A stretch of DNA of 64,000 nt from a virus (taxonomy: Duplodnaviria; Heunggongvirae; Uroviricota; Caudoviricetes), in IMG/VR virus record IMGVR_UViG_3300025000_000058. One strand, 5' to 3'. The notes beneath the pieces are model-generated. The model ran no database searches. It was not told the DNA's origin and saw nothing but the letters and a program-made list of their open reading frames with translations. Positions within the stretch are counted from its first letter, which is position 1. The number at the start of each line of letters is the position of its first letter. Shown in pieces: positions 6,749-52,232 of the stretch. Made by a program: the position numbers and the translations under genes.

Positions 6749-6981
6749 TAGTAAATCATAATATATTCTTTTGGATATTTTAAACAATAGGAAATAATGT
6801 TTAGTTCTAACCATTTCCATCCCTGGGAAGGTATGTAAACTAATTCTTTATATCCTATATAATTATTTATCCAGCATTCTATAGAAATTATGCAAGGATT
6901 AGTACGTTTTTTAAATTCCTCCCATTCTTGGTCTGATATTTTAGGGAAATTCAACTTTAATAATATAGGTTGTTGTGTCAT
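6748..6981 (-). CDS. hypothetical protein
   Basis: 77-aa ORF. Confidence 0.35.
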   Translation of the reverse strand: MTQQPILLKLNFPKISDQEWEEFKKRTNPCIISIECWINNYIGYKELVYIPSQGWKWLELNIISYCLKYPKEYIMIY

Positions 6982-7018
6982 AATTGTAAAACCTCCTATG
7001 TTATATTTAAAACCTTAA

Positions 7019-7085
7019 CAATAGGTACAATTAATTTAAACTCTTTAAAACAAGTCTATTAATTGTACCTATGTTTAAAATTTTA
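7019..7085. repeat. intergenic hairpin element (D-type), copy 1 of a 75-bp near-identical repeat
   Basis: Perfect 13-bp arms AGGTACAATTAAT / ATTAATTGTACCT. About 95% identical to 8629-8704. Confidence 0.6.
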
Positions 7086-8379: not shown

Positions 8380-8599
8380 AAATAAGCCATAATTTCCTTA
8401 ATTCATTAAATATTGCTAGTTTTGTATTTTTACCTGTAAGGTCTGCATATAAACCAATAATGCCAGCCAGATCATCATCTCCTTTTTTAATTCTTTCCAT
8501 AACTTGGTCTAAATGGTGATAATTAACAGCCCTTTGATTAACTTTATAAAATTTCTCAGGATTATTAAAGGACATAACTTTTTTAGTCGCATTGTTCAT
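8378..8599 (-). CDS. hypothetical protein
   Basis: 73-aa ORF. Confidence 0.35.
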   Translation of the reverse strand: MNNATKKVMSFNNPEKFYKVNQRAVNYHHLDQVMERIKKGDDDLAGIIGLYADLTGKNTKLAIFNELRKLWLI

Positions 8600-8628
8600 A
8601 GTGTTTAAAACCTCCTGTTAATTATTAT

Positions 8629-8704
8629 AAAACCTTAACAATAGGTACAATTAATTTAAACTCTTTAAAACAAGTCTATTAATTATACCCATGTTTAAAA
8701 TTTT
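8629..8704. repeat. intergenic hairpin element (D-type), copy 2, degenerate stem
   Basis: Near-identical to 7019-7085, including the loop, but the right arm is mutated (ATTATACCC). Confidence 0.55.
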
Positions 8705-9227
8705 ATAACAAATGCTTATCTCTTTTATTGTCTTTTTCCTTTTTGGATTTTTTTGATTCTATTTTTTCAGATCCATAGATATTCCTAATTTTTTCCATTG
8801 GTATTGATTTTCTCCATTTTTTAGTTGTTTGGTCTTCAGAACACCAACTCCATAATTTTTTCTTACTTCTCCATATTAATCCAATTGCTTTTAATTCTTC
8901 CTTAATGGGCTTAGTTATTCCTCCTACCCACAGCCAAGAACCGCATATTTCTATTTCCAAGTCTTGGAATTTTAATAATGCATCAATAACTTCCCTGAAA
9001 AAATCATTAACATTGTGATTGTTAACATTAATAAATTCTTCACCAGACATTTTAATGTCTTTTAAATATTCGAAGGCTATTTCATAGTCTAAATTAATTC
9101 GCTTCATAATTTCCAGACACTTAGGGTCGCTGTTTAAATCAGGATGATACAATTTTGCAAGCTGTCTGTATTCCTTTTTCAATTCTACCAAGTTTTTACA
9201 TGATTTGAAGAATGTTAAATTTTTCAT
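8703..9227 (-). CDS. J-domain (DnaJ-like) protein
   Basis: ELKKEYRQLAKLYHPDLN contains the HPD tripeptide in a canonical J-domain helix II/III context. The C-terminus is lysine-rich. Confidence 0.75.
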   Translation of the reverse strand: MKNLTFFKSCKNLVELKKEYRQLAKLYHPDLNSDPKCLEIMKRINLDYEIAFEYLKDIKMSGEEFINVNNHNVNDFFREVIDALLKFQDLEIEICGSWLWVGGITKPIKEELKAIGLIWRSKKKLWSWCSEDQTTKKWRKSIPMEKIRNIYGSEKIESKKSKKEKDNKRDKHLL

Positions 9228-9257
9228 AGTATAAAAACCTCCTGTTATTCTTTAATT

Positions 9258-9423
9258 TTAATTTTAAAATGCTTTTTAAAACCATTATTAAAAGCTTTAT
9301 TGCCTACACTTTTTTATATATGGATTAAAACAACATTTTTATTAAAATGCTCTTAGTTATCCATAGTCTAAGCAAATGCTAGCTTAAAACAATTATACAA
9401 TGATTTTAAAAAGCATTTTAATA
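9258..9423. repeat. long-range perfect inverted repeat (16 nt arms) bounding the start of the non-coding region
   Basis: AAAATGCTTTTTAAAA at 9260-9275 and its reverse complement at about 9404-9419, separated by roughly 125 nt. Confidence 0.45.
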
Positions 9424-10613
9424 AATGCCTTTTGCTTCTCATTGTCATAGGAAAAAACTATCTTTTTAAATATCAGAAGAATATAAAACAGTAAAATGTA
9501 CATTATAGCTGATTTAGTATAATGTTATATTTTACAAAATATTCTCTGTGATTTTTTCAAGTTTTTTGCAGGTTGTTTTTACTTAGAGTTAAAGCCAACA
9601 ACCATAAAACAGACTTAAAGAAGCAAAAAAGCATTTAGTTATAAAATGCTTTAGGTATTACTTTTTGATTCGTTTTAGAGGTTTTTTATTGGTTTTTGTA
9701 TTTCATTTCCATTTAATAACTACTGCCATTATCCGAAGTTTTCATTAAGATAAGTAACAATCTTTACTAAAAAACTGTAAAACATACTCAAGTATACCTT
9801 AATAAATGCTTCGAACATGCTAAATATTTTGCCGTATCAGTTTAACAAGTCTAGTTATTTCACTTATTCCAAGGCTACTAATTAACAGAGTATCCCAACC
9901 AACGAAAAACAGTATTCTTGCCATTGCCAGTTCATTTAGTGGCAATTTAAATTCTCTAACAATTTCCTGTTTTCTGGAAAATGAAGTCCTTCTCTTTTAA
10001 CGGAGGAAGGGACTTTTGTTAATTTTCGCCTTGTATTTTAGCTTTTGTTAGACTTGTTTTTTTCCAATTATGTATAATTCATTCCTATACATAACCGACC
10101 ACGGGAGTATCCTACTTGAAAGGCTTTGAACCCCTCTTTGTTTCTCCAATGGATTTAGAACGATATCCCAATTGTTGACAACGCACGTTCCACAAGCTCT
10201 ATATAGTTATGAGTTTATCAAGATCCCTCCTTTGGTATTATGCACCCCTTCGACATTCCGCAGGCTTAACTTTTCAGTAAAATTTTTCGTCCTAGAGTGA
10301 GACTTCCCACTTTTTGGAATACTCCTTTTTACCTGTCTTGGGTAAACCACTCCCAAGCATTTTATAAAACCTTCGACTGCCAGCCTTCCTGCCCACATAC
10401 ACATGCTTATGTATGCTACTCCAAGTCAAAAAAGGTTTTTTGATTTGTCTTACACTAAGAGTATACGCAAAAACTTTAAAACTTATGCATGATATTTTAT
10501 GATATTTTTAATTCTCTTCCTCTTTTCTTACTCCCACTTGTGGCTCCCCTGCCACACGCATAATATAACATATCTAAAAAATAGAATCTAACCTGATATA
10601 ATGCCATATTAAG

Positions 10614-10690
10614 CGAATTTAAAATATTAGCTTGCATTTGCTTAATATAGCTTTTGAAATCAGCTTTTTTCGTGAATTTAAAATATTAGC
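10614..10690. repeat. two direct 20-bp repeats GAATTTAAAATATTAGCT
   Basis: Copies at about 10615-10634 and 10670-10689. Followed by an AACCCTTACA...TGTAGGGTT hairpin and a T-run at 10699-10735 (terminator-like on the plus strand). Confidence 0.4.
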
Positions 10691-11224
10691 TATTTAAAAA
10701 ACCCTTACATAATGCGGGTTGTAGGGTTTTTGCAAAAAGTTTAAAAATTAAAATCAAATAAAAATTATGTTTTTTTGCTGATTATTTTAATAATCATTTT
10801 AAGGCTTTTTTAGACAGGTAAAAATGCTTGTAGGATATAACATACTTGATTTAATTTTGTCCTGCCTTAAACGGGCTTAAATTAAGGTTTAAATTGATTT
10901 TATAAAGATAGGGAAAAGGTATAATTTTAATGTGAGTTTAAAAAGCTTATTTTAAGGCTTATTTGAGAAGGTTTTTTGTTGGTAGCAGGTTTTTATATTT
11001 AGCATGGCAAAAAGTAAGCTTAAACCGCATTGTAGAAGGTTTAAAAGGTATTTTATAGGCAGGGAAAATATTATTACTTCTATTAGAAGGAAAAAAAGAA
11101 AAGCGATCCAGTGTTGCCGTCCCAACAACACACATATTTTTATTACGTTTTTTACTTGTATGACTACAAAAAATTCTCTCTCCCAGTTGGTTGTTTGGAA
11201 AATGAGAATGGTTCTCATTAATAC

Positions 11225-11400
11225 ATTACATAGTATTCATTACTACTTCACATAGTAACATATAATATAATTTTCAATACCACATAATATATCATATAGT
11301 ATTCATTTCTATTATAATAGTAATATATAACATAGTATTAATTATTCTATAACATATCATATAGTATTAAAAACTACTTTATATATTACCATGTAGCATA
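11225..11400. repeat. iteron-like direct repeats (CATAGTATT core, at least 5 copies)
   Basis: ACATAGTATTCATT, TCATATAGTATTCATT, ACATAGTATTAATT and TCATATAGTATTAAAA recur within 180 bp. Confidence 0.5.
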
Positions 11401-11557
11401 TTCCATATTATTATATTACATAATTTTAAATACTATATTCAATTCTGAATATTTTGAATTTATTGAATTATTTTATTTTTAAAACAGGTAAAAAGACAAT
11501 TATAACAAATGCATAAATTATATTATTTTGCGTTCTCTAACATCAATAAAGTAAAGT

Positions 11558-12021
11558 TAAAATTGATTTTAAAGCTATTAGAAGCTTCATACAGACACGA
11601 AAAGCTTTTTAGGTATTAAACCATTGGCAAAAAATTATACATAGGTTGTAGAGCAAATATCATGTACCAATGATTCTACAAGGGAAAATTCACTCTTGAC
11701 AAATGCTAAATATTATGATTCGCTGATTATTTTATGCATTTATCAGAATATTCTATTTATTTATGAATGGCACGTTTTTTGCTAATTCAAAAAGTATGCC
11801 AATAGAAAATAGCAAAAAATTATTGATTTTTTAATCAAAAGTTAAAATCAATTTTAAGGCTTATATAAGCTTCATAGAGAGGAATTAATACTTTTAGGTA
11901 TTAAACCATTGCTTACGCAAATTTCGCTGAATACAGACGATCCAACAATTAACAACCTTGTACCAATGATTATATAAGGGTTTTTTGCCTATTGACAAAT
12001 TAAAAATATTATGATTCGCTA
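11558..12021. repeat. two copies of a composite ~170-185 bp unit, each ending in a promoter-like TTGACA-17 box whose -10 hexamer is replaced by TTCGCT
   Basis: Unit 1 is about 11558-11724 and unit 2 about 11836-12021. Shared blocks are GATTTTAARGCTTAT, AAGCTTCATA.AGA, CTTTTAGGTATTAAACCATTG, TGTACCAATGATT and TTGACAAAT...AAATATTATGATTCGCT. A third partial unit lies at 12640-12780. Confidence 0.55.
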
Positions 12022-12099
12022 CATAGCGAAAAGGATAATTAGTTTTAATTGATTTTAGCATAAATCAGCGAAAAGAATTAATGGCATGATTTATGCAGA

Positions 12100-12600
12100 T
12101 ATATTTGATTATTAATATATTTAATTATCCATATATAATGGTTTTAATATACATGAAGAATATAATATAGTGATATACATATATTTGAATTATATAATAT
12201 ACAGATATTCATATATAGTATGATTAATATATAGTGATATTATTCTATATAATAATTAATATATAGTGATAATTAAATATTTGATAAATATAATATATAA
12301 ATATTCATATATACATTATTTAATATATACAGATAATTAAATATATTATATTTATAATATACAGATAGTCGAATATTCAAATATTATTATATACAATTAA
12401 CATTATATATTAATTATAATATATTTAATGATTATATTATACAATAAATAGTATATATTGATATTCAAATATTCAATATTTATAATATAATGATATTCAT
12501 ATATATAATTATCTATATATGGAATTATTTGAATATATAATTATTCGTATATTTGAATAATATATATGTATCATTTAATACAATTAATTGTCTCATATCA
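12100..12600. repeat. AT-rich degenerate tandem repeat block (ATATATAGTGATA / AATATTCATATATA / ATACAGATA motifs)
   Basis: About 500 bp at over 85% A+T, built from short reiterated motifs. Candidate DNA-unwinding element. Confidence 0.5.
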
Positions 12601-12797
12601 TACAATATGCATAATTCATGCCAGTATGATATGATACATTTTTTATTTTATAGCTGAATAGCTTTTAAAGTGATTTTAAGCTTCATATAGAGGGCTGAAT
12701 ACTTTTAGGTATTGTATGAGGTAAAATTATTTTTTGTGGCTGTATGAAGCTTATATAAAGAGGTGAAATAATTAGATATTATTTGATTTAATTAATA

Positions 12798-12890
12798 AAA
12801 TTAGTGTATTAGTATGCTAGTACACTTAAAACAGTAGTGTCTGACTATGCAAACAGATAATTAAATTAGTGTATTAGTACGTTAGTACAC
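12798..12890. repeat. two direct copies of a 28-bp palindrome-containing site (AAATTAGTGTATTAGTAYGYTAGTACAC)
   Basis: Copies at 12798-12825 and 12863-12890. Each holds a GTGTATTAG...CTAGTACAC inverted repeat. Confidence 0.55.
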
Positions 12891-12939
12891 CCAACGGAAC
12901 CGAAGGTGTAGTCTTTCAGCTTGCCTCTATCGTTACCCA

Positions 12940-13135
12940 TAACGAACAATGTTCCACGTGGAACTATTCCGCTATTCCGCAATTGCGTATGTCAGTTAAA
13001 AATTCTAATATTACGGAATAACGGAGCATCGTAACACTTCATAAATTACGTGATTCCGTAATGTCGTAATTATTACTTATTTCCGTTATTCCGTTCTTAC
13101 GTAATTTCGTAATCTATCCGTCCCTGCTTCAACTA
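12940..13135. repeat. cluster of CpG-containing short palindromes and TTCCG repeats (GTTCCACGTGGAAC, TTACGTAA, TTCCGYTATTCCG)
   Basis: A perfect 14-bp palindrome GTTCCACGTGGAAC lies at 12951-12964. TTCCGCTATTCCGC, CGGAATAACGGAG and TTCCGTTATTCCGTT are also present, plus several TACGTAA and CGTAAT sites. In a genome this AT-rich the clustering is highly non-random. Confidence 0.55.
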
Positions 13136-13164
13136 TTCCTGATAATATACATTATCAATAATAT

Positions 13165-13290
13165 TATAATGATTATCATTATCACTCTACATATAGTATA
13201 TTTCTCTTGTCAAATATCTATATATAGATTTTACCCGTATGACATACTATATATAGATTATTTTTAGCTTATACATACTATATATAGGGG
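13165..13290. repeat. three direct repeats of CTATATATAGATT(T)
   Basis: ATATCTATATATAGATTTT, CATACTATATATAGATTATTTTT and CATACTATATATAGGGGG. Confidence 0.45.
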
Positions 13291-13362
13291 GTACTTTACA
13301 CATTGGAAATAATTTCCATCGCCAGGGGATGCCCTAGCACTTAAACCCCGACACTACGTGTC

Positions 13363-13560
13363 GAACTATACAACTATACAACTATACTATTTACTTTATA
13401 CTTACTTTACAATCAATTAACCAACTTCTAACTTCTAACCAACTAACTAACCTCTCAATCAACTAATCACTTAACTATACAACTAAAACTTACCAATGTA
13501 ACATCAAATTATAACATTTAACATTATACCACTTATAAAATAACTAACTAAAAATCAGAT
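13363..13560. repeat. strongly G-depleted (plus strand) low-complexity tract with tandem AACTATAC and AACTTCTA repeats
   Basis: About 190 nt containing only 2 G residues. Includes (AACTATAC)x3 and (AACTTCTA)x2, AACTAACTAACC. The complementary strand is correspondingly C-free. Confidence 0.6.
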
Positions 13561-13860
13561 TAACCACGAAAAATTTTTGGGTTTAAATCACCTGAGAAGG
13601 GAAAATATGCCCTAAAATGACGGTTTTTTTATCGAACTATCTTCCTTTATTTAAAACGAATTATGACTACAACCTTAATAATTATATAAGGTATACAATT
13701 TTCACAACTGATATTTATATTATATCATTAATTAAACTGTCAATCAATTAATTTATTAATAACGGGGGCTATCTTTACACCACACTATACATTATACATA
13801 ATAATAAAATTTCTATCGAAATTTTCTTAGTTTTTTTTCTTGGTGTGATAATATATAGGG

Positions 13861-13890
13861 TTGACAAGGTTTATTCGTATTTTCTACAAT
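13861..13890 (+). promoter_or_regulatory. sigma-70-like promoter (TTGACA-17/18-TACAAT) pointing antisense toward the rep-like gene
   Basis: TTGACA at 13861-13866 and CTACAAT at 13884-13890. The downstream plus strand is antisense to 14068-14829. Confidence 0.4.
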
Positions 13891-14019
13891 ACGTATTGGT
13901 ATTTATATTGTAATATATATTGTAATATATACTATAATATATATAAATTTTTGTCATACACTCTCATATAGATATATCTCATCATAAACTGTTGGAGGTG
14001 TCATACAAATGTATCATAA

Positions 14020-14057
14020 AAATATACAAAAAAATAAACTGATATATAATCAGTTTA
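14020..14057 (-). terminator. rho-independent terminator of the minus-strand unit ending with 14068-14829
   Basis: On the minus strand the hairpin AAACTGAT-tatat-ATCAGTTT is followed by ATTTTTTTGTATATTTTT. Confidence 0.6.
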
Positions 14058-14067
14058 ATCATGTGTT

Positions 14068-14829
14068 TTAATCATTTAATAAATATTCTCTAATTTCATC
14101 TACTGTAAGAACGATAAACTTTAAACTTTCCTTTTTTTCTACAATACCATTTTCATCATAATATTTATACTCTTTATTATTCTTCTTAACACTTTCTAAC
14201 ACTTTGGCTTTCTTCTTATCACTGTTGCAGACTATTAGTATATGAGGAAATCTGTTTACCCTATTAAACCAATATTCATTTTCATAATCTCTATTTTTAA
14301 ATATCTCATTATAATTAATAACTTTCATAAATTCATTTTTACTCTCTACTCTATCGCTTTCAATTATAAAATACATATATTCATTATTAACATAATTTTT
14401 AAATCCAATAATACCGTCTGGTCTTCTACCACAATCCATAACATATTCTTTTTTCATATCTGAATACTTATAATACTTATATTCTTTTTCAACCATTTTT
14501 AACAAATAAAGAAAACCCCAATTTCTATTAATATCGTGTTCAAGAAACTTCGGTAATTTATCTACATAAAACTTATTACATTCATTTATATCTAATCTAA
14601 TGCTACTAATTTTCTTTCTACCTACTAACTTCCTTAACCTCTCTCTACACTTAATTATGCCATATTTAATTGAAGAAAAAAACAATAAATATACCTGTTC
14701 TGTTGTCAATACTTCATACTCTTCAATGGTTTCAACAATCAATTTATCTCGGTAATAACCTTTTTTTCTGGTATTCATCTTGTTGTCCATGTTGAAGGAG
14801 TCCTTTATTATTTCCACTGATTTGTTCAT
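14068..14829 (-). CDS. Replication-relaxation (Replic_Relax)-like protein with a possible PD-(D/E)xK motif
   Basis: 253 aa. Basic N-terminus and RRPDGIIGF...FIIESDRVESK (a PD...ExD..K arrangement). Size, composition and adjacency to an FtsK-like ATPase match Replic_Relax proteins of Firmicute mobile elements. Overlaps the upstream gene by 86 nt. Confidence 0.4.
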   Translation of the reverse strand: MNKSVEIIKDSFNMDNKMNTRKKGYYRDKLIVETIEEYEVLTTEQVYLLFFSSIKYGIIKCRERLRKLVGRKKISSIRLDINECNKFYVDKLPKFLEHDINRNWGFLYLLKMVEKEYKYYKYSDMKKEYVMDCGRRPDGIIGFKNYVNNEYMYFIIESDRVESKNEFMKVINYNEIFKNRDYENEYWFNRVNRFPHILIVCNSDKKKAKVLESVKKNNKEYKYYDENGIVEKKESLKFIVLTVDEIREYLLND

Positions 14830-16138
14830 TAATTATATCATCACCTTTATAATAATAGCTTGCATATGTTTTTTTCTTTGCTTCGCCATACACCATTGCC
14901 CTTTCTCTGGCTGTCTCTGAATCTAAATATAAAGCCTGTGCTTCAACTAAATTACCTTTATATAATGATAATAACCTACCATCGGCATCTGACAAATAAA
15001 ACGCATCTGTACTGTTTAACACTGTTTGAGAATGCCCTCTATCAGCACAACGAAAACATATCCTTCCTATAAGATTGTTCTTAATTATGGGGCTAATTAA
15101 ATCTTTATCTGGTCTTTGCATACATATTATAAGATGTATTCCTACTTTACGTGCTTGTTGACTTAATTCTGCTATTGTACCTTGTAACATGTTTCTGATT
15201 CTCTTTTCTTCTTTTGTATGGTATTTCCCAGGTGCGGTAAAAGCAAATTCATCAATAAATAAAACCATATATGGCAATTTATTCTGTGGATATTTTACAT
15301 TATATTTAACAATATCTAAACCAAAGTCAGCTAAATAATACTTCCTCTTAATCATTTCCTGTTTAAGAAATAATATTATCTTTAATGCTTCTTCTATCTC
15401 ACTAGCAAACACAGCACAATCTTTAACATGAATAAAATCTATTAAAGCTAAATCAATAACAAATAATAATACATTTGGATTCTGTAGCAATGCATCAATC
15501 CATGATTTGATTAATACTGTCTTTCCTGAACCAGTATATCCAGCAATAAGGTAATGCACAACATTGGTTAACTCTATTATATTTAAACCTCTTTGATTAA
15601 CTCCAAGTGGCATTGGAAGTACATAATTATCTAAATATTCTATTGTGTTGAAGCTATATTTTACTTTACTTGGTATCACACCCTTAAATACATCAATAAC
15701 TAATACGCCTTTACTTTCTTTAACATCAACTAATGCTGTTAAACCATCTGCAAAATATTTTCTTTTGTTAATGTAATCTTTATATAATAAACCTCTTGGC
15801 AATTGCCATATAGTAGTAAAATGATTTGCATTATTTACATCTTTAATTGTTTCTAAATGCACAGCGTAATCGCCTTTATTCTTATTGGTCAATCCAATTT
15901 CATACATGATATTCTCAATCTCAGATTCTAATGTTCTACTTTTCCTAGTACGTATCATTTTCTTAATTGTAACTCTTAATTCTTCTGGTTTTTTCTTCTT
16001 TAATGGCTCATAGCCCCATTGTTGAAGTGCTTGCTTTGTCACCTGTTTTACTACTTCTTTACATAACTTTTTTAATTTTTTAAATTTAGATTCTTTACAT
16101 ACTTCTCCAGCTATTCTTTTTTGTTCCAATTCAACCAC
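14744..16138 (-). CDS. FtsK/SpoIIIE-family DNA translocase-like ATPase
   Basis: Walker A LIAGYTGSGKTVLIKS, Walker B-like LLFVIDLALIDF, and downstream ICMQRPD, typical of the FtsK/SpoIIIE/TraB/TcpA family. 464 aa. Confidence 0.7.
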   Translation of the reverse strand: MVELEQKRIAGEVCKESKFKKLKKLCKEVVKQVTKQALQQWGYEPLKKKKPEELRVTIKKMIRTRKSRTLESEIENIMYEIGLTNKNKGDYAVHLETIKDVNNANHFTTIWQLPRGLLYKDYINKRKYFADGLTALVDVKESKGVLVIDVFKGVIPSKVKYSFNTIEYLDNYVLPMPLGVNQRGLNIIELTNVVHYLIAGYTGSGKTVLIKSWIDALLQNPNVLLFVIDLALIDFIHVKDCAVFASEIEEALKIILFLKQEMIKRKYYLADFGLDIVKYNVKYPQNKLPYMVLFIDEFAFTAPGKYHTKEEKRIRNMLQGTIAELSQQARKVGIHLIICMQRPDKDLISPIIKNNLIGRICFRCADRGHSQTVLNSTDAFYLSDADGRLLSLYKGNLVEAQALYLDSETARERAMVYGEAKKKTYASYYYKGDDIINEQISGNNKGLLQHGQQDEYQKKRLLPR

Positions 16139-16839
16139 CTACTATTCTTTGGTTTATTTAAGTAATCCTTAAATCCTTTAACTTTTTCAATAACTCCTTT
16201 GCGAATACTACCTTCTTGAACTTTATTAATATAATCTAAAACGCCATCCACAATCTTTTCATAACACTTTTCATCAATTTCTGACATTTCCTTTGAACCC
16301 ATATCACGATTAATAATTATTTCTTCACCATTTTGGTTCTTAATAACTATGTTGATGCTCCCAGGTGTTTTATCATCTGTTATCTTAACATTTTCATTAT
16401 ACTTATCTTCTTTTTTATTGATGTTGCTGTTTGTATTATTATCAATTTTTTGTTCATTTTTATTAATTATTTCTTCTTTTTTAGTAGAATTATTGTTAAT
16501 TTCATGCTGTTTTTGCTCATTATATTGTTTATTTTCATTAATATCCTTGTTTTCTCTATATTGCTTATTTTCATTAATATCTCTGTTTTCATCATATATT
16601 TTATTCTCATTATAATTATACGTCTTTTCATTTCCAGCACCATCATCAACGCCCTCTTTAACACTTACAACTATTGGAAGTTTTTTATCATCAATAATCA
16701 AGTCCCCATAAAAACTATTATTATCATGTCTATAAATCTTAGCATCAATTGTATTGTTCTTGAATAAGAAACTAAGATTAAACATTACAAAAATTGCCAT
16801 TGCACCTACAATCACCTTATTTATAAATACTGTTTGCAT
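16111..16839 (-). CDS. membrane-anchored protein with Asn/Lys-rich low-complexity repeat region
   Basis: N-terminal TM helix (VIVGAMAIFVMF). Internal repeats ENKQYRENKDINENKQYNEQKQ. Confidence 0.45.
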   Translation of the reverse strand: MQTVFINKVIVGAMAIFVMFNLSFLFKNNTIDAKIYRHDNNSFYGDLIIDDKKLPIVVSVKEGVDDGAGNEKTYNYNENKIYDENRDINENKQYRENKDINENKQYNEQKQHEINNNSTKKEEIINKNEQKIDNNTNSNINKKEDKYNENVKITDDKTPGSINIVIKNQNGEEIIINRDMGSKEMSEIDEKCYEKIVDGVLDYINKVQEGSIRKGVIEKVKGFKDYLNKPKNSRWLNWNKKE

Positions 16840-16853
16840 AAATAACTCTCCTT

Positions 16854-17249
16854 TTACCTTGTTCTAGGATATTCTTGCAATTTCTTCATGTATTTATTAT
16901 TTGGCAATACTTCTTCTATTGAATCTTCAATTACTTTATCAATATCTTTTTGAACATCTGCCTTATCATAATACTTGCTGGAGGGATCTACATACTTCTT
17001 AACTTTATCAATTTGATTTTCTACATATTCTGCTTTCGCTTGTTGTTCTTCAATCAGTGGCATTGCTTTAGCCATAACAACATTCAGGCAAGCGAACAAA
17101 CTTATTACTATTATCATTTTAGCCATATGATATTTTCTTAATATTTTACATGTTATATAACCAAACACACCAATTAATATTTGCAACATTATCTGCGGTA
17201 AACATAAGCACAAGATAGCGAACAGTAAAATTGGTACAATAAATAACAT
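16854..17249 (-). CDS. membrane protein, hypothetical
   Basis: Two predicted TM helices in the N-terminal half. Confidence 0.45.
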   Translation of the reverse strand: MLFIVPILLFAILCLCLPQIMLQILIGVFGYITCKILRKYHMAKMIIVISLFACLNVVMAKAMPLIEEQQAKAEYVENQIDKVKKYVDPSSKYYDKADVQKDIDKVIEDSIEEVLPNNKYMKKLQEYPRTR

Positions 17250-25902: not shown

Positions 25903-27624
25903 TTATAAGCTACTTAATACTCTGCCTCTGATATCTGCTAAACTATCATCTCTTAATAATTTGCCATCAACAAATACTTCTTCCAGTAAATCATCTGCTC
26001 TAAATAGAGCTTGTTGTGCAATTGATAATCCATCAATATATGTTATTTCATTTGTTGTTGAATCTTGAAGTACAACAACTCTGCCTTTTTGTGATTTTTT
26101 GATTTTGTCGAGATCAGTTTTCGGATTTTTAAAAATCAGTTTTTCTTTTCCATTTATTACTACGTGTGTTGCTTTAATAGCGATCATAAATGTATCTCTA
26201 CTATAATAACCTAGTGAATATGAACCTACACCAAATATAACATTTTCACTAGAAAATCCTTTTTGTTCTAGTTTTTTAAATATTTCTTCTGCTCTTTCTG
26301 GATTGATGCTGTCACCATATATAAGTGAAATATGTGAATCTAATACTTTATATCCTTTAGAATTAATTGTACCACCAAATATATCCCATAGTGATTCTAT
26401 TGAACCTTTTTGTTCTATAGTCAATTCTACTTCTTCACAACTTATTACCTGTGTATAATCAATATAATAATATTGTTTATCATACCTGTTCCATTCAAAT
26501 TCGACAATTATTTTATATATTTTATTATTATATTTGAAATACCCTTCATTTTTATCTACTCCATATTCTCCATGAGGTGTTTCATCTCTTACTTCTTCTT
26601 CTAAATATTCTTTCATCGTTTTAATACAATCATCTAATGTTTTACAATATTTATCATTTGTAAAATCTTCAACAATCACATTACCACAAATAATGTCAAC
26701 TGGATTGCCCGTATCTGGTCTTACGACCAGTTTACCATTTCTATTCATTATAATTTCTTTTAATTTTGGAATAATATTACCAATAACATTCCAATAATCA
26801 TATCCATCTGATACAATACTAACAATACCTTCAGGTACGATTTCAGTAATCATTTTTTTATAATATTTTAAATCATCCTCATATTGGCATTGAATCGAAT
26901 GCTCAGAAGCGAGTACGCTTGAAAATACTAGCTCTTCTTCAACATTGGCATTATAGTAATGCTCTAAATACTGAGTGCTTGGTATAGTATCTGAGCCTGT
27001 GAAATATAGTAAATGTCCTGCCCCTGTTGTTATTGCATCTTCATTGCAACCCATTCCTCTATAACTGAAGTTGTGACATTGCCATTTAATATGTTCTTTA
27101 CTATCGCATGTTTTTTCAGCCCATTTTTCACATATATCTCTATATTTTTTTACTATTGTTGTAGATGTTATTACTTTCCACATTGAAACACTTATAAGTG
27201 TTTCTAAATAATTTGTTAACCAATGAAATTCATTATTAGTATTTTCAATTGTAAACAATGGTGTTTTAATTGGTGCTAAAGTACCTTCTTTAAGAGCACG
27301 TATTTTAATTGGCAAATACCCTAAATCATGTAATGCTTCAATATGCTTAGTATCTGCACAATTATCCCCTAAAGTGTATTTAATAATTCTTTTATATTCT
27401 GTAATTACTTCTTCTTTGTTTCTACTAAAGAAATTTTCATTAAAGTATTCAATCAAATATTCTTTTATAAAACCTTGCAAACCAAAGAATACTACTTCAT
27501 TAATATCTTTTAATCTTGTCCCTCTTGGAGTAAATGTAGAATATGTTTTCTCAATTCCTTTTTCAGTCATAATTCTGTGAGATATTTTATAACAATCTAC
27601 TAATAACATTGGATTATATTTCAT
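25903..27624 (-). CDS. nadV: nicotinamide phosphoribosyltransferase (NAMPT, NadV-like)
   Basis: 573 aa. The N-terminal MLLVDCYKISH and overall length and architecture match NAMPT/PBEF. Conserved GTDT-like and phosphoribosyltransferase regions are present. Confidence 0.85.
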   Translation of the reverse strand: MKYNPMLLVDCYKISHRIMTEKGIEKTYSTFTPRGTRLKDINEVVFFGLQGFIKEYLIEYFNENFFSRNKEEVITEYKRIIKYTLGDNCADTKHIEALHDLGYLPIKIRALKEGTLAPIKTPLFTIENTNNEFHWLTNYLETLISVSMWKVITSTTIVKKYRDICEKWAEKTCDSKEHIKWQCHNFSYRGMGCNEDAITTGAGHLLYFTGSDTIPSTQYLEHYYNANVEEELVFSSVLASEHSIQCQYEDDLKYYKKMITEIVPEGIVSIVSDGYDYWNVIGNIIPKLKEIIMNRNGKLVVRPDTGNPVDIICGNVIVEDFTNDKYCKTLDDCIKTMKEYLEEEVRDETPHGEYGVDKNEGYFKYNNKIYKIIVEFEWNRYDKQYYYIDYTQVISCEEVELTIEQKGSIESLWDIFGGTINSKGYKVLDSHISLIYGDSINPERAEEIFKKLEQKGFSSENVIFGVGSYSLGYYSRDTFMIAIKATHVVINGKEKLIFKNPKTDLDKIKKSQKGRVVVLQDSTTNEITYIDGLSIAQQALFRADDLLEEVFVDGKLLRDDSLADIRGRVLSSL

Positions 27625-48177: not shown

Positions 48178-48837
48178 CTAATATTTATATAACCATTTCC
48201 ACCAACCAGTATTACTTGCCATATTTAAACATTCCCATTTACATTTATCATATTGTCCTTTTATATTTACATGATAATGACCAAAATAGTATTTTCTTAT
48301 ACTCGGATACATTTCTAATATTCTTGACAATGCAACTCTACTACAATCTTTATGTTTTTGAGTATCTTTGAATCTATCTCCTAAATCAAATTCTAATGGA
48401 CATGTATGTGATATTACGATATCTATTTTTGTATTTGTTGAGGGAAGATTCTCAAAATCTTTTTGCGATATAACTTCTTGCGGAAACCAGTCTACTCCAA
48501 TTGTTCTTGTATTTTTATCAATTGATTCAGCACCACCCATAAACAGTACAACTTTCCCATTGGGAAGAGTTAATGTAGAACCACGTTTCATATAAAATAT
48601 ATTTGGTGCAATTTCATTATTTGTAAGAGTATTTAAATAATCATGGTGTTCATGATTTCCATCTGCAAAATATATTTTACAATCACCGTTTTTAATTTTA
48701 TCTAAAGAACATTCTTTATGATATGGCCATATTCCAAAGTCTCCACATTGTAATATAATATCTGGTTTTTTCTTATTTATTAAAGTATTTAATTTATTCC
48801 ATTCTGCATGAATATCTCCAACAATTATTAATTTCAT
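48178..48837 (-). CDS. calcineurin-like metallophosphoesterase
   Basis: MKLIIVGDIHAEW (motif I GDxHG), QCGDFG (GDxxDRG-like) and GNHEHHD (GNHE). Confidence 0.75.
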   Translation of the reverse strand: MKLIIVGDIHAEWNKLNTLINKKKPDIILQCGDFGIWPYHKECSLDKIKNGDCKIYFADGNHEHHDYLNTLTNNEIAPNIFYMKRGSTLTLPNGKVVLFMGGAESIDKNTRTIGVDWFPQEVISQKDFENLPSTNTKIDIVISHTCPLEFDLGDRFKDTQKHKDCSRVALSRILEMYPSIRKYYFGHYHVNIKGQYDKCKWECLNMASNTGWWKWLYKY

Positions 48838-48853
48838 TTATTCATTTCTCCTT

Positions 48854-49444
48854 TTAATTAAATAATTCATAATTATTTTCTAATTTTCCATCTCCAACAA
48901 TAAATATTTTACTTCCACAATCATATAAACAATCACTAATTTCTTTTATATTTAAAGATATAATATAATCATAATAACTACTTTTTACCCTTATAAATCT
49001 CATTGTTTCATATCCTCTTTTTATCCTAATTACTAAATTATAAAATTTATAAGCTTCTCTAATAACAATTGCATTGTCATTCATTTTTAATCTTTTAATT
49101 TTCTTTTGAATAAAATTGAATTGTTTTCTATTTTCTTTAATATCTTCATCATCCCAATATTTTGTTTTCTTAAAATCTGCTCCATCAACATCAATAACTC
49201 TAATAGCATCAAAATGGTAAGGAAAATTTTTATCATAACCTTTACATGTTTCACAAAAATGACTTGTGATAAATAAATCATTTATTCCCCATTGAGTATA
49301 TAGCTCTTGATATATTTTATTAATAATACTTAATGGAATTTTCTTTTTTGTTGAAGTTTCAATATTATACCCATAATTTTTACCTGCATAATCAACAAAC
49401 CATTTTATAAACTTATTAAAGTATATTCTTTCAAATCTTGTCAT
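48854..49444 (-). CDS. hypothetical protein
   Basis: 196-aa ORF lying between the phosphatase and the ligase-like gene. Confidence 0.4.
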   Translation of the reverse strand: MTRFERIYFNKFIKWFVDYAGKNYGYNIETSTKKKIPLSIINKIYQELYTQWGINDLFITSHFCETCKGYDKNFPYHFDAIRVIDVDGADFKKTKYWDDEDIKENRKQFNFIQKKIKRLKMNDNAIVIREAYKFYNLVIRIKRGYETMRFIRVKSSYYDYIISLNIKEISDCLYDCGSKIFIVGDGKLENNYELFN

Positions 49445-50502: not shown

Positions 50503-51444
50503 TTAAAAATTAACATAATCTCCACCATTTTCTATTTTACTTTGCAATGGCTTATAATATCTTTCTATTGTTGTATTTATATTACTATGTCCTACAAAAC
50601 GCTGAACTACTTCAATTGGTGCTTTATTCATTAGCATCTGAGTAACACACGTTTTCCTAAGTGTATGAGGACTAACATCTTCAATTTCAACTTTTTTACA
50701 CCACTTCTTTAATATTTTAGACACATTATCCGCTGTCATTGGAAATAATAAATCATTTGATACTCCAAACTCTCCTCTCTTATCAAAATAATCCTTTAAC
50801 AATTTCATTAATTCTGTATTTACTTTTATACTTCTTGCTTTTCTTCCTTTGGCTTTAACAATGGTTAAATAATAACAGCCAATCATTTCATCATAATTAA
50901 AATCATTCATTCTAACATTAATCATTTCACTTCTTCGGAGTCCAAAATTCAATAAACATTTAATAAGTAAATATTCTGATTGTTTATTTCCTTGTTTAAC
51001 CATATCTAATAACTTTTCAACTTCTTCTTTACTCAAAGCTCTGCCAGAATCAACATCATTCTTATCAAGATTTAAAAACATATGTTCTTTAACAACTTCA
51101 TTTCCAAAAGGATTTATTTTAACATCATTATTAATTGCCATTGTGTATTTATAAAATGAATTTAAAGTTGAAATACGATTTCTTATTGTGTTACTGCTTG
51201 CCCCTTTGTCAACCATCTCATTAATAAAATTTTCTATATTTAAGATACCAATTTCTTTAACCATATCAATTGTAATGTGTTCAAGATGATTTACTTTAAA
51301 AAATACCTTTAGTGTTTGAGAATATGATCTTTTTGTTTCAGCACTTTTAAATCTGTTAATGAATCTTCCTCCAATATCTTGATTTATTTTATCTTGATTT
51401 AATGTAATAACTTTGTTTAAGGCTGTATTCATTTGTGTTTGCAT
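50503..51444 (-). CDS. int: tyrosine recombinase/integrase
   Basis: Catalytic box GLRRSE...HTLRKTCVTQ...VGHSNINTTIERYY carries the R..H-x-x-R..Y signature. 313 aa. Confidence 0.85.
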   Translation of the reverse strand: MQTQMNTALNKVITLNQDKINQDIGGRFINRFKSAETKRSYSQTLKVFFKVNHLEHITIDMVKEIGILNIENFINEMVDKGASSNTIRNRISTLNSFYKYTMAINNDVKINPFGNEVVKEHMFLNLDKNDVDSGRALSKEEVEKLLDMVKQGNKQSEYLLIKCLLNFGLRRSEMINVRMNDFNYDEMIGCYYLTIVKAKGRKARSIKVNTELMKLLKDYFDKRGEFGVSNDLLFPMTADNVSKILKKWCKKVEIEDVSPHTLRKTCVTQMLMNKAPIEVVQRFVGHSNINTTIERYYKPLQSKIENGGDYVNF

Positions 51445-51461
51445 TTATAAAACCTCCATTC

Positions 51462-52232
51462 TTAAAATACATATCTATCTATATAATTTCTATCTTGAGT
51501 AAATATAGGAATTTCCTTATCTATAATCCATCTAGTTCTCATTGTACCTTCTTTGTCATATTGTTCTTTAATAACACAACTACCACGTTTCTGATAGGCA
51601 GGAAAATCATTAAAATTAATACCTTTCTCTTGAAAAAGCATTTCTTGTATTTGATTACAATTTTTATTTTGTAATTGTTTATGACTAAACTTTGCACTGC
51701 CAACCATTTGAATAGCATTTCTTGTAGCGTCTTGTTGTCTCCAAATAAATGCGTTGCATACTTCTTCTTTTGGAATATTAAATACTCTTGAATCAAATAA
51801 AGCGGTGTTAAATCTTTTTTGATAAATATCAACATAATCTGATATATCTTCTAAATCAATTTCATCATATATATTTCTAAATATTTTATTAAATGCTAAT
51901 GTTGCCATACTAGCAGACACAGATACCATTTTTTGTACATTATAATTAAACCATCCTTGTGTTTCAATTGTATCATAATCTGTCATTAACAATGTTATTT
52001 CATCACTCTGAGTATATGCTAATTTACAACCTTGTATGTTTTCGCATAAATACTTTGCTGTCTCTTGCATTGTAGCAATCATAATTTCATCAAATGGCTT
52101 TTGAAATCCTTTAGTAAATGTGTGAAATGACTTTCCATCAATTCTTACTAGCACTGGTACATTATTTAATATATAATTTCTATTTACATTTTCATAATTT
52201 TTCATGCGACTTCCAAGTGCATCATTTTTCAT
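51462..52232 (-). CDS. Thg1-like tRNA-His guanylyltransferase family 3'-5' nucleotidyltransferase
   Basis: VPVLVRIDGKSFHTFTKGFQKPFDE and AYTQSDEITLL match the Thg1 palm-domain motifs (RxDGxxFxxF, SDE). Confidence 0.8.
   Translation of the reverse strand: MKNDALGSRMKNYENVNRNYILNNVPVLVRIDGKSFHTFTKGFQKPFDEIMIATMQETAKYLCENIQGCKLAYTQSDEITLLMTDYDTIETQGWFNYNVQKMVSVSASMATLAFNKIFRNIYDEIDLEDISDYVDIYQKRFNTALFDSRVFNIPKEEVCNAFIWRQQDATRNAIQMVGSAKFSHKQLQNKNCNQIQEMLFQEKGINFNDFPAYQKRGSCVIKEQYDKEGTMRTRWIIDKEIPIFTQDRNYIDRYVF

What the first reader, a model, noticed from the sequence alone, without database searches (positions are those of the whole stretch)
9228..14067. 4.8 kb non-coding, repeat-dense region in an otherwise tightly packed genome: candidate origin, partition or regulatory hub
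No ORF with a credible start, RBS and length lies here, while the flanks are gene-dense. It contains, in order: a GC-richer island, CATAGTATT iterons, two and a half copies of a roughly 280-bp composite repeat, a 500-bp AT-rich microsatellite-like block (candidate DNA-unwinding element), paired 28-bp palindromic sites, a CpG-palindrome and TTCCG cluster, CTATATATAGA repeats, a 190-nt G-free tract, and a promoter antisense to the adjacent rep-like gene. This is the architecture of a plasmid or phage-plasmid replication and partition region. It lies directly upstream of a Replic_Relax-like gene and an FtsK-like ATPase.
Basis: seen in the sequence. Interest (0 to 1): 0.7.

Follow-up and report, generated by a model that had tools for sequence, protein, structure and literature searches.

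The report
Gene-free phage locus centred on parS
A 4.8-kb stretch with no genes in a large AT-rich groundwater phage is a conserved cis-acting control region built around a bacterial-chromosome-type centromere site (parS), so it probably serves genome segregation or maintenance, while a replication origin there is not shown.

Summary
Window 9228-14067 has no credible ORF under any tested genetic code. It is by far the largest gap in the window (4.84 kb; next 743 nt; median 92 nt). Four independent assemblies reproduce it at 99.6-99.99% identity.

Relatives whose neighbouring genes are only 55-65% identical keep a 3-4 kb gene-poor stretch in the same place, 3' of an FtsK-like/winged-helix operon. 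Four elements are conserved there:
- A parS palindrome, TGTTCCACGTGGAACA, identical to the Pseudomonas chromosomal parS (15/16 in the window, 12950-12965). It lies at a sharp local GC-skew inversion.
- One to three AGTGTAT-N10-GTACACT dyads.
- A block about 400 nt from parS that carries either a Fur-box or CG[G/T]AAT 8-mers. The window has both.
- A promoter convergent with the winged-helix gene.

The 480-bp AT block (about 30 in-register 16-bp units), the composite repeats and the GC island are specific to this lineage. There are no DnaA boxes, no Rfam hits and no structured RNA. A DnaD-like initiator lies 40 kb away.

Verdict: this is a partition and regulatory hub. The partition reading is supported. 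The origin reading is plausible but unproven. It is a new variant of a known kind.

The parts
9228..9700 (-). Left boundary. It holds the promoter and RBS of the DnaJ-like gene (8703-9227), AT-rich hairpins followed by T-runs on the minus strand (about 9405-9440 and 9628-9655), and a 23-nt inverted repeat (9264-9286 / 9399-9421).
   Evidence: Sequence. Inverted repeat I14 is 96% complementary. Weak terminator-like Rfam hit at 9408-9459. The terminator role is inferred.
9983..10015 (.). GC-rich hairpin GAAGTCCTTCTC-N8-GAGGAAGGGACTT with T-rich tails on both strands. Several metagenome contigs break just beside it (10022-10130).
   Evidence: Sequence. Contig ends of L018-L020.
10085..10560 (.). 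Lineage-specific GC-richer island (38-45% GC, C-rich on the + strand). It is neither coding nor a stably folded RNA. Function unknown.
   Evidence: Composition. Fold z-scores -0.75 and -0.69. Its pseudo-translation matches only itself. No Rfam hit.
10696..10731 (.). Hairpin AAAAACCCTTACA-N10-TGTAGGGTTTTT, a bidirectional terminator-like element. Upstream of it lie two perfect 18-nt direct repeats, GAATTTAAAATATTAGCT, at 10615 and 10674.
   Evidence: Sequence. Repeat family D18.
11215..11445 (.). Degenerate 36/65-nt AT-rich tandem repeats containing (C)ATAGTATT.
   Evidence: The exact 9-mer occurs only twice here, and its window-wide count is not significant.
11553..12020 (.). Two copies of a composite repeat (11553-11724 and 11838-12020). 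Each carries a + strand copy of the phage's standard promoter (TTGACAAAnnnAAATATTATG, at 11696 and 11992) whose -10 is replaced by TTCGCT. That copy overlaps a minus-strand TTGTCA-18-TA(G/T)AAT promoter-like site.
   Evidence: (alignment A7).
12096..12580 (.). About 30 in-register 16-bp units (nTnATATATAnnGATA) at 10.9% GC, the most AT-rich 450 bp in the window. It is the best candidate for an easily melted or protein-coated array. It is absent from relatives.
   Evidence: Absence in L005/L009/L022/L024.
12663..12758 (.). Partial third copy of the composite repeat, with an inverted AAGCTTCATA arm.
   Evidence: Family D5 and inverted repeats I16, I24. Alignment A7.
12798..12890 (.). Two dyad sites AGTGTAT-N10-GTACACT (12798-12825 and 12863-12890). 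The family-wide conserved operator lies on the side of parS opposite block B. The window's local GC-skew maximum (12885) falls inside the second site.
   Evidence: 2 sites, 0 expected. TAGTACAC is present in 12 of 20 family loci, and the dyad lies within about 70-470 nt of parS. Skew maximum.
12948..12965 (.). parS: ATGTTCCACGTGGAAC(t). The 16-mer TGTTCCACGTGGAACT matches the perfect chromosomal parS palindrome TGTTCCACGTGGAACA at 15 of 16 positions.
   Evidence: Invariant core in the 5-lineage alignment A1. Unique in the window. Identity to P. aeruginosa parS2/3 and P. putida parS. Present with 0-1 mismatch in 19 of about 21 further family loci.
12964..13115 (.). Cluster of 8-bp-phased CGGAAT(A)/CGTAAT motifs in both orientations. 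It is equivalent to 'variant 2' of block B in relatives (TTACGGAATAACGTAATGGCGTAAT).
13160..13213 (-). Minus-strand promoter-like site TTGACA-18-TAGAGT, followed at once by GATAATGATAATCATTATA (13183->13165). This matches the Fur-box consensus at 18 of 19 positions. It is equivalent to 'variant 1' of block B in relatives, where L005 carries a perfect TGATAATcATTATCA.
   Evidence: The Fur consensus is taken from established knowledge.
13218..13287 (.). Three CTATATATAG palindromes about 30 bp apart, directly upstream of the minus-strand promoter. A related TATATAG abuts the -35 of the block A promoter. Relatives carry ATACTATATAGGGTAT-type palindromes.
   Evidence: Sequences of L005 and L009.
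13364..13497 (+). G-free, C/A/T-only low-complexity tract. It is part of the G-poor arm that continues the genome-wide strand bias.
13852..13944 (+). Block A: conserved promoter TTGACA-18-TACAAT (13861-13890) followed by AT-rich 12-nt repeats. It points into the 3' end of the winged-helix gene. Probably an insulator or antisense promoter.
   Evidence: Conserved in L001, L005, L009, L022 and L024..
14036..14056 (-). Terminator hairpin of the FtsK-like/winged-helix operon: AAACTGAT-ATATA-ATCAGTTT followed by a T-run on the minus strand.
   Evidence: Sequence. Function inferred.
14068..16138 (-). Syntenic operon that always flanks the locus. It encodes a 253-aa protein with an N-terminal winged helix (14068-14829) and an FtsK/SpoIIIE-like ATPase (14744-16138). 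Upstream lie membrane-anchored proteins (16111-17249).

Best explanation
The region is a conserved, gene-free, cis-acting maintenance and regulatory locus of a family of large, very AT-rich groundwater phages.

Core and proposed mechanism. Its core is a chromosome-type parS centromere. ParB dimers would load at this site. The ParB could come from the host, because none is encoded in the 64-kb window. It could also be phage-encoded, because one relative carries a ParB_N+HTH_ParB gene 9 kb from the module. Loaded ParB would form a partition complex that lets the phage DNA ride the cell's segregation machinery. That could serve a plasmid-like prophage, a carrier state, or a phi29-type entrapment.

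Other conserved sites around parS:
- AGTGTAT-N10-GTACACT dyads, probably bound by a conserved phage protein. The neighbouring winged-helix protein is the obvious candidate.
- An exchangeable operator cassette about 400 nt away: a Fur box or CG[G/T]AAT 8-mers.
- CTATATATAG sites at a promoter.

Boundaries and lineage-specific parts. Terminators and a conserved convergent promoter insulate the locus from the flanking operons. The 480-bp 16-bp-unit AT array, the composite repeats with disabled promoter copies, and the GC island are lineage-specific additions.

Shown: sequence identity of parS, conservation of the sites, synteny, absence of genes, and the skew inversion.
Inferred: ParB binding, the segregation role, which protein binds which site, and any origin activity.
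For: Non-coding status and reproducibility:
- The region is non-coding and reproducible across assemblies.

Conservation of position and synteny:
- A gene-poor stretch sits in the same syntenic position in L005, L009, L022, L024, L147 and L149, although the flanking protein is only 55-67% identical.

parS:
- The 18-bp palindrome is invariant while its flanks cannot be aligned.
- It equals the published chromosomal parS and is unique in the window.
- It is present with 0-1 mismatch, 365-771 nt from block B, in 19 of about 21 further family loci.

Skew inversion:
- The cumulative GC-skew maximum lies within 37-65 nt of parS in four relatives and 65 nt from it in the window.
- It lies within about 106 nt in 11 of 16 further loci.
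- 69 unrelated parS-bearing viral contigs show no such inversion.

Other conserved sites:
- Dyad sites are conserved across the family.
- The Fur-box match is 18 of 19 and unique in the window, and L005 carries a perfect 7-1-7 box.
- The convergent promoter is conserved.

ParB and precedents:
- A ParB gene is present in relative L147.
- phi29 carries host-type parS sites used with host Spo0J (PMC2731898).
- An FtsK/SpoIIIE-replication-relaxation operon lies beside repA/parABS in a Bacillus plasmid prophage (PMC11526630).
Against: - No ParB or ParA gene was found among 74 window ORFs or by tblastn with the L147 ParB.
- The window's parS has one mismatch, and there is only one site in 64 kb.
- The relative that does encode ParB (L147) has only a degenerate parS.
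- A single 16-bp site does not explain why 3-5 kb must stay gene-free.
- The skew inversion has terminus-like polarity. That is the opposite of the ori-proximal setting of chromosomal parS.
- There are no binding, expression or lifestyle data, and the host is unknown.
Confidence: 0.55

Rival explanations
1. The region is a replication origin, either for lytic growth or for plasmid-mode replication. The AT-rich 16-bp array would act as the DNA-unwinding element. Repeats would bind an initiator. A promoter-driven RNA would prime synthesis (ColE1/T4-oriF-like, or like the RNA-based prophage origins next to parABS in mycobacteriophages). This could coexist with the partition function.
For: - The most AT-rich 450 bp of the window, with strictly phased units, lies here.
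- Several promoter-like sites face AT-rich DNA, for example block A followed by AT-rich 12-nt repeats.
- There is no adjacent Rep gene but parS is adjacent, as in the non-RepA mycobacteriophage origins (PMC7157519).
- The FtsK/replication-relaxation pair sits in a plasmid-prophage replication module (PMC11526630).
Against: - The AT array and the 'iterons' are missing in all relatives examined.
- No DnaA boxes lie in the region.
- The block-B variants do not co-vary with the winged-helix protein.
- A DnaD-like initiator, a RecD2-like helicase and a divergent promoter region with an origin-type (- to +) skew switch lie at 52.5-58 kb.
- The local skew inversion here has the opposite, terminus-like sign.
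Confidence: 0.25
2. The region is mainly a set of non-coding transcription units that converge on parS. These would be a C-poor RNA from the left arm and G-rich read-through or antisense RNAs from the right arm. The RNAs, or the act of transcription, would be the functional product (regulatory RNAs, or confinement of ParB or SMC by convergent RNA polymerases).
For: - The strand bias of both arms matches that of sense strands elsewhere in this genome and flips at parS.
- Promoter-like and terminator-like elements delimit units.
- The Fur-box promoter and the convergent promoter are conserved.
Against: - No Rfam family matches in the window or in six relatives.
- Tested segments fold no better than shuffled sequence.
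- No strong consensus promoter was found in the relatives' arms.
- The two + strand promoter copies in the window lack a usable -10.
- There are no expression data.
Confidence: 0.15
3. The locus is the DNA target of the adjacent FtsK/SpoIIIE-like pump. The oppositely skewed arms would act like KOPS/SRS polarity signals converging on a central site, as at a chromosomal dif. Alternatively the 8-bp repeats would act like the clt/TRS repeats read by Streptomyces TraB. Either way the phage DNA would be oriented for translocation, dimer resolution or transfer.
For: - Synteny of the FtsK-like gene with the locus is invariant.
- The skew maximum, a dif-like polarity, coincides with the parS/dyad core and is specific to this family.
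- A Xer-like tyrosine recombinase lies 3-4 kb from the module in relatives and at 50503-51444 in the window.
- 8-bp-phased CGGAAT/CGTAAT repeats are present.
- The dyads have an 11-6-11-like layout.
Against: - No repeated polar 7-8-mer shared across 20 loci was found beyond composition effects.
- The FtsK-like protein has no detectable gamma/winged-helix domain by Pfam, and only about 30 residues follow the motor.
- Two directly repeated dyads 65 bp apart would be unstable if they were recombination sites.
- The arms are not inverted copies of each other.
Confidence: 0.1
4. The region is mostly functionless filler. It would be a recombination-prone, hypervariable spacer holding decayed genes and slippage repeats, with only a few short sites under selection.
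For: - Arm sequences cannot be aligned between relatives.
- Many short low-copy tandem repeats are present.
- Many metagenome contigs break inside the region.
- Strain variants show a local patch (9878-9969) and a rearrangement (11699-11796).
- Block-B cassettes are exchanged between close relatives.
Against: - A multi-kb gap persists across lineages in otherwise tightly packed genomes.
- The arms keep an extreme, ordered strand composition rather than drifting.
- No protein relics were detected.
- The 16-bp array stays in register for about 480 bp.
Confidence: 0.08

Closest known systems
Chromosomal ParABS centromere parS (B. subtilis Spo0J sites; P. aeruginosa parS2/3 TGTTCCACGTGGAACA)
   Same: The 16-bp palindrome is identical in relatives and matches at 15 of 16 positions in the window. 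It is intergenic, and one to two copies occur per 20 kb.
   Different: It sits in a phage. No cognate parAB operon lies next to it. It is located at a terminus-type, not origin-type, skew switch, inside a multi-kb gene desert.
Host-type parS sites in virulent Bacillus phage phi29 (Spo0J-dependent spore entrapment; PMC2731898)
   Same: A phage carries chromosomal-type parS without its own ParB and presumably exploits host segregation. Binding sites for a host global regulator accompany it: Spo0A boxes there, a Fur-like box here.
   Different: phi29 has five sites dispersed through a compact 19-kb genome. Here a single site is embedded in a dedicated 3-5 kb non-coding locus beside an FtsK-like operon. 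Host and lifestyle are unknown.
Plasmid-prophage maintenance modules (P1, N15, mycobacteriophage RedRock parABS with RNA-based ori, PMC7157519; Bacillus RBClin15 with FtsK/SpoIIIE-replication-relaxation beside repA/parABS, PMC11526630)
   Same: A centromere is combined with adjacent non-coding DNA and the same FtsK-like/replication-relaxation-like gene pair. A Xer-like recombinase is nearby.
   Different: Those systems use their own ParB with element-specific repeats. No repA or parAB was found here. The genome is large (a 165.7-kb contig carries an ORF from the island; family contigs reach 541 kb). The non-coding tract is several-fold longer.
Fur-regulated promoters (Fur box GATAATGATAATCATTATC; 7-1-7 TGATAATnATTATCA)
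   Same: The match is 18 of 19 in the window and a perfect 7-1-7 in L005. The box overlaps a promoter-like site.
   Different: No regulated gene follows it. It is interchangeable with a CG[G/T]AAT-repeat cassette in sister phages.
FtsK-KOPS-dif / SpoIIIE-SRS polarity systems and Streptomyces TraB-clt
   Same: An FtsK-family motor is encoded beside DNA whose strand asymmetry converges on a central palindromic site. 8-bp repeats are present.
   Different: No defined polar motif, no gamma domain and no demonstrated recombination site were found. This is a resemblance only.

Membership tests
ParABS-type centromere (chromosomal parS) | 16-bp palindrome matching TGTTNCACGTGNAACA | tested here: met
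   The window matches at 15 of 16 positions at 12950-12965. Relatives match at 16 of 16. The sequence is the same as published parS sites.
ParABS-type centromere (chromosomal parS) | Cognate ParB (ParB_N + HTH_ParB) and ParA encoded by the same element | tested here: not met
   No ParB_N, HTH_ParB or ParA-type hit among 74 window ORFs. tblastn with the L147 ParB is negative. ParB is present in relative L147 only. The rest of the genome lies outside the 64-kb window and was not seen.
ParABS-type centromere (chromosomal parS) | Specific ParB binding and stabilisation of an unstable replicon | not testable with these tools
   Needs ChIP or EMSA and plasmid-stability assays.
Iteron/DnaA-type plasmid or phage origin | Initiator gene adjacent to the origin | tested here: inconclusive
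Iteron/DnaA-type plasmid or phage origin | Phased direct repeats (iterons) conserved with the replicon | tested here: not met
   The 16-bp array and the 36/65-nt repeats exist in the window but not in relatives.
Iteron/DnaA-type plasmid or phage origin | DnaA boxes | tested here: not met
   No TTATCCACA or close variant in 9228-14067.
Iteron/DnaA-type plasmid or phage origin | AT-rich unwinding element | tested here: met
   12096-12545 has 10.9% GC, the lowest in the window.
Iteron/DnaA-type plasmid or phage origin | Origin-type cumulative GC-skew minimum | tested here: not met
   The region holds a local skew maximum. The - to + switch lies at about 52.5-53 kb.
Fur box | Match to the 19-bp / 7-1-7 consensus, overlapping a promoter | tested here: met
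   18 of 19 at 13165-13183, unique in the window, next to TTGACA-18-TAGAGT. L005 carries a perfect TGATAATcATTATCA.
Fur box | Binding by host Fur and iron-dependent expression | not testable with these tools
   Host unknown; no expression data.
Known structured ncRNA families (Rfam) | Covariance-model match at the gathering score | tested here: not met
   Zero hits in the window and in six related loci. Only sub-threshold chance-level hits at E<1.
Xer/dif-type recombination site | 11-6-11 dyad bound by a XerC/D-like recombinase at the skew maximum | tested here: inconclusive
   The dyads at 12798 and 12863 fit an 11-6-11 layout, and the second one spans the local skew maximum. A Xer-like gene is present. 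There is no similarity to known dif arms, and the two direct copies lie only 65 bp apart.
FtsK-KOPS / SpoIIIE-SRS polarity system | Over-represented polar 8-mer and a gamma recognition domain | tested here: not met
   No shared polar 7-8-mer beyond composition effects in 20 loci. No gamma domain by Pfam.

The most novel reading that the evidence does not exclude
The gene-free arms may be a sequence-coded polarity device. Their opposite, extreme strand compositions converge on the parS/dyad core. They would steer the adjacent phage FtsK/SpoIIIE-like pump, together with its winged-helix partner, toward a ParB-marked site. This would be a phage-borne hybrid of the KOPS-dif and ParB-parS systems, used to position, resolve or move a large phage genome into a daughter cell or spore.
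Probability: 0.1. Interest if true: 0.85.

Novelty: new variant of a known kind. Interest (0 to 1): 0.6.

Why it matters
Large and huge phages from groundwater are known almost only from metagenomes, and how their genomes are maintained in cells is open. This locus gives a concrete, testable handle. It combines a canonical bacterial centromere, a conserved dyad operator, a host metal-regulator box and an FtsK-like pump in fixed order across a diverse family whose contigs reach 541 kb. If the parS is used, these phages tap the near-universal ParB system. That would point to a plasmid-like or carrier lifestyle and to a broad host-independent strategy. The parS-centred skew inversion is an unexplained signature specific to this family. 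It could also serve as a search key for more members.

Tried and rejected
- Alternative genetic codes: reading through TGA or TAG opens no long frame.
- Known RNAs: no tRNA or tmRNA and no Rfam family in the window or in relatives.
- Structured RNA in the GC islands: folds are no better than shuffled sequence.
- Pseudogene in the GC island: three-frame translations look non-protein-like, and the best frame matches only itself in 5.8 billion proteins.
- Small conserved ORFs in the C-poor arms: none with an RBS or plausible composition.
- DNA similarity to phage records (INPHARED/GenBank collection) or PLSDB plasmids: none.
- Close relatives in IMG/VR via the flanking proteins: none.
- Host assignment through GTDB genomes: none.
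- Giant palindrome (arms as inverted copies of each other): rejected.
- KOPS-like polar motif: not found.
- Iteron arrays in relatives: not found.
- Co-variation of the block-B cassette with the winged-helix protein: rejected. Proteins 90-91% identical sit next to different cassettes.
- Defence-system membership of the flanking operon: no relevant PADLOC hit.
- Structure of the 242-aa neighbour: low-confidence model, not pursued.
- Physical terminus or packaging site: contig breaks are scattered over many positions rather than one, and no terminal-repeat evidence exists. This was not pursued further.
- The conserved 21-mer ACCGGGGCGTAGTTTACAAAT of relatives is absent from the window.

Full report
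CONTEXT. The window is a 25.7% GC, gene-dense phage segment. It encodes NAMPT, an NAD-dependent ligase, a RecD2-like helicase, Thg1, an RNA ligase, a PhoH-like protein and a phrog_1735 protein. That last protein is 61% identical to proteins of SPO1-like Bacillus phages and of a Clostridioides phage record, pCD1602_4. Near-identical and related contigs all come from Rifle groundwater metagenomes. Family contigs reach 162-541 kb. A 165.7-kb contig carries an ORF from the GC island. Genes lie on the minus strand from 1 to 52 kb and on the plus strand from 53 kb onward. The coding strand is extremely C-poor throughout.

OBSERVATION: NON-CODING STATUS.
- Window 9228-14067 holds no frame longer than 94 codons, or 100 with TGA or TAG read through.
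- Four independent assemblies (L012-L015) reproduce the 4.84-kb gap at 99.6-99.99% identity, and no gene was called in it.
- It is the outlier gap of the window: 4.84 kb against 743 nt for the next largest and a median of 92 nt.

OBSERVATION: THE REPEAT INVENTORY. Three points need correction.
- The exact 'CATAGTATT iteron' occurs only twice in the region.
- The strict G-free run is 134 nt and is ordinary for this genome.
- In transcriptional terms the region lies 3' of the rep-like and FtsK-like genes.

COMPARATIVE ANATOMY: SYNTENY. Homologues of the flanking 253-aa protein and of the 242-aa membrane protein retrieve relatives in which the 253-aa protein is 55-67% identical. Each relative has the same operon: membrane proteins, then an FtsK-like ATPase, then a winged-helix protein. 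In each, the operon is followed by a 3-4 kb gene-poor stretch. The arms cannot be aligned between lineages, but collinear blocks are conserved.

COMPARATIVE ANATOMY: CONSERVED ELEMENTS.
1. parS. The palindrome ATGTTCCACGTGGAACAT is invariant in five lineages.
   - Its 16-bp core is letter for letter the perfect chromosomal parS of P. aeruginosa (parS2/3) and P. putida. It is one base from the B. subtilis site.
   - The window matches at 15 of 16 positions at 12950-12965 and has no other site with two or fewer mismatches.
2. Block B. This block starts with ACCGGGGCGTAGTTTACAAAT. It is followed by one of two cassettes.
   - One cassette is a Fur-type 7-1-7 box, perfect in L005.
   - The other is a run of 8-bp-phased CG[G/T]AAT motifs.
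   - A metagenome scan with the block-B motif returned about 21 further family loci. Of these, 19 have parS (0-1 mismatch) 365-771 nt away.
   - The window lacks the 21-mer but has both cassettes: CGGAAT/CGTAAT repeats at 12964-13115 and a Fur-box match of 18 of 19 at 13165-13183. The Fur box sits beside a minus-strand TTGACA-18-TAGAGT site.
3. Dyads. It is present once to three times, on the side of parS opposite block B.
4. Block A. This is a promoter with -35 TTGACA in the window and TGGACA in relatives, an 18-nt spacer and -10 TACAAT, followed by AT-rich 12-nt repeats. It is conserved in six lineages and points into the 3' end of the winged-helix gene, across that operon's terminator.
5. 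CTATATATAG. Three copies lie at 13218-13287. Related TATATAG(GG) motifs abut the -35 of two promoters, and relatives carry related palindromes.

STRAND COMPOSITION. In every relative one arm is C-depleted and the other G-depleted on the same strand.
- The cumulative skew maximum lies 37-65 nt from parS in L005, L009, L022 and L024. In the window the local maximum, at 12885, lies 65 nt from parS.
- It lies within about 106 nt of parS in 11 of 16 further loci.
- In L147 it lies about 70 nt from a degenerate parS, and in L149 220 nt from a parS-like site.
- The pattern is unchanged by reverse complementation.
- It is absent from 69 unrelated parS-bearing IMG/VR contigs, where the mean left-minus-right skew is 0.00.
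- The polarity is terminus-like. The arms are not inverted copies of each other. No shared polar 7-8-mer was found. The inversion remains unexplained.

LINEAGE-SPECIFIC PARTS.
- The 480-bp array of about 30 in-register 16-bp units (10.9% GC) has no counterpart in relatives.
- The composite repeats carry two plus-strand copies of the phage's stereotyped promoter, TTGACAAAnnnAAAATATTATGnTATAAT. Eleven canonical copies occur elsewhere in the window, all oriented with their genes. In the repeat copies the -10 is replaced by TTCGCT, and each copy overlaps a minus-strand consensus promoter.
- The GC islands of the window and of L009 are neither structured nor protein relics.

PROTEINS.
- The window copy has no Pfam hit. 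Only one distant homologue shows a faint Replic_Relax hit.
- The FtsK-like protein has the motor domain only.
- No ParB or ParA was found among 74 window ORFs.
- Relative L147 encodes a ParB_N+HTH_ParB protein 9 kb from the module. No homologue of it occurs in the window.
- A DnaD-like initiator (54517-55332), a RecD2-like helicase and a Xer-like recombinase (50503-51444) lie about 40 kb away. They sit near the divergent-promoter region where the skew switches in the origin sense.

INTERPRETATION. The locus is best read as a parS-centred, insulated, cis-acting hub that is decorated with operator sites for phage and host regulators.
- phi29 shows that a virulent phage can carry host-type parS sites (PMC2731898).
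- Bacillus plasmid prophages place the same FtsK/replication-relaxation pair beside repA/parABS (PMC11526630).
- Mycobacteriophage prophages have non-coding RNA-based origins next to parABS (PMC7157519).

Origin function remains possible but rests on AT-richness alone. Three results argue against it: the AT array is not conserved, DnaA boxes are absent, and the block-B cassette does not co-vary with the neighbouring DNA-binding protein. Chromosomal-type parS is itself common in IMG/VR viral contigs, including phi29-like ones. It usually has no adjacent ParB there. The novelty therefore lies in the dedicated multi-kb architecture and the skew inversion, not in parS alone.

VERDICT. This is a new variant of a known kind. 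Interest 0.6.

Noticed in passing
window 25402, 33018, 40232, 47447, 52941, 54212, 60515, 60596, 60685, 63846 (plus 11696 and 11992): The phage uses a stereotyped promoter, TTGACAAAnnnAAAATATTATGnTATAAT, with an almost invariant spacer and an extended -10. Every copy is oriented with the genes it precedes. The conserved spacer suggests that something besides sigma reads it.
   Followed up: partly
whole window; L005, L009, L022, L024: GC skew is extreme across the genome. The coding strand has only 1-5% C over long stretches, and G-free or C-free runs longer than 100 nt occur inside genes (for example 48811-48956). The cause is unknown.
   Followed up: partly
IMG/VR loci L027-L146: More than 120 viral contigs carry the parS 16-mer, and about 90 of the 120 returned loci have the full palindrome, across 28-60% GC. 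Contexts include phi29-like capsid and connector genes and tail sheath genes. A ParB gene is usually not adjacent.
   Followed up: partly
window 9878-9969 (against L013): All 25 differences between the window and strain variant L013 fall in one roughly 90-nt patch of the non-coding region. This looks like a recombination patch. The changes are not adenine-specific, so the pattern is not DGR-like.
   Followed up: no
window 11699-11796 (against L014): One strain variant has a 36-nt-longer rearrangement between the two composite repeat copies.
   Followed up: no
L009 17481-17496; L149 17899-17914: A second parS (perfect in L009, one mismatch in L149) lies about 3-5 kb beyond the main locus in some relatives, in a short intergenic gap.
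   Followed up: no
L147 vs L231; L009 vs L022: Phages whose winged-helix proteins are 90-91% identical carry different block-B cassettes (Fur-box type or CG[G/T]AAT-repeat type). The cassette is therefore exchanged independently of the protein. The CGTAAT half-site resembles the Zur-type TCGTAAT half-site (a lead from memory only).
   Followed up: partly
L147 1-1140 and 17385-17415: The one relative with a nearby ParB gene (GHQR motif, HTH_ParB domain) has only a degenerate parS (ATGTTCCAC...TTTCACAAGTGAAC) at its skew inversion.
   Followed up: partly
window 14009-14071 (+): A 20-codon ORF (MYHKNIQKNKLIYNQFNHVF) follows a strong GGAGG RBS, downstream of the block A promoter, and overlaps the operon terminator. 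It is not conserved in the alignment of relatives.
   Followed up: no
window 8592-8705 and about 6973-7085: A roughly 115-nt intergenic cassette is repeated at 90% identity upstream of small minus-strand genes.
   Followed up: no
window 25903-27624, 51462-52232, and other ORFs between 33 and 52 kb: The window encodes NAD-salvage and RNA-repair functions: NAMPT, PRPP-synthetase-like, Thg1-like tRNA-His guanylyltransferase, RNA ligase and PTH2. It also encodes a T7 gp5.9-like RecBCD inhibitor and a radical-SAM protein.
   Followed up: no
window 13300-13362: A GC-rich segment between the CTATATATAG sites and the G-free tract holds two short palindromes, TGGAAATAATTTCCA and CGACACTACGTGTCG. They were not examined in relatives.
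   Followed up: no
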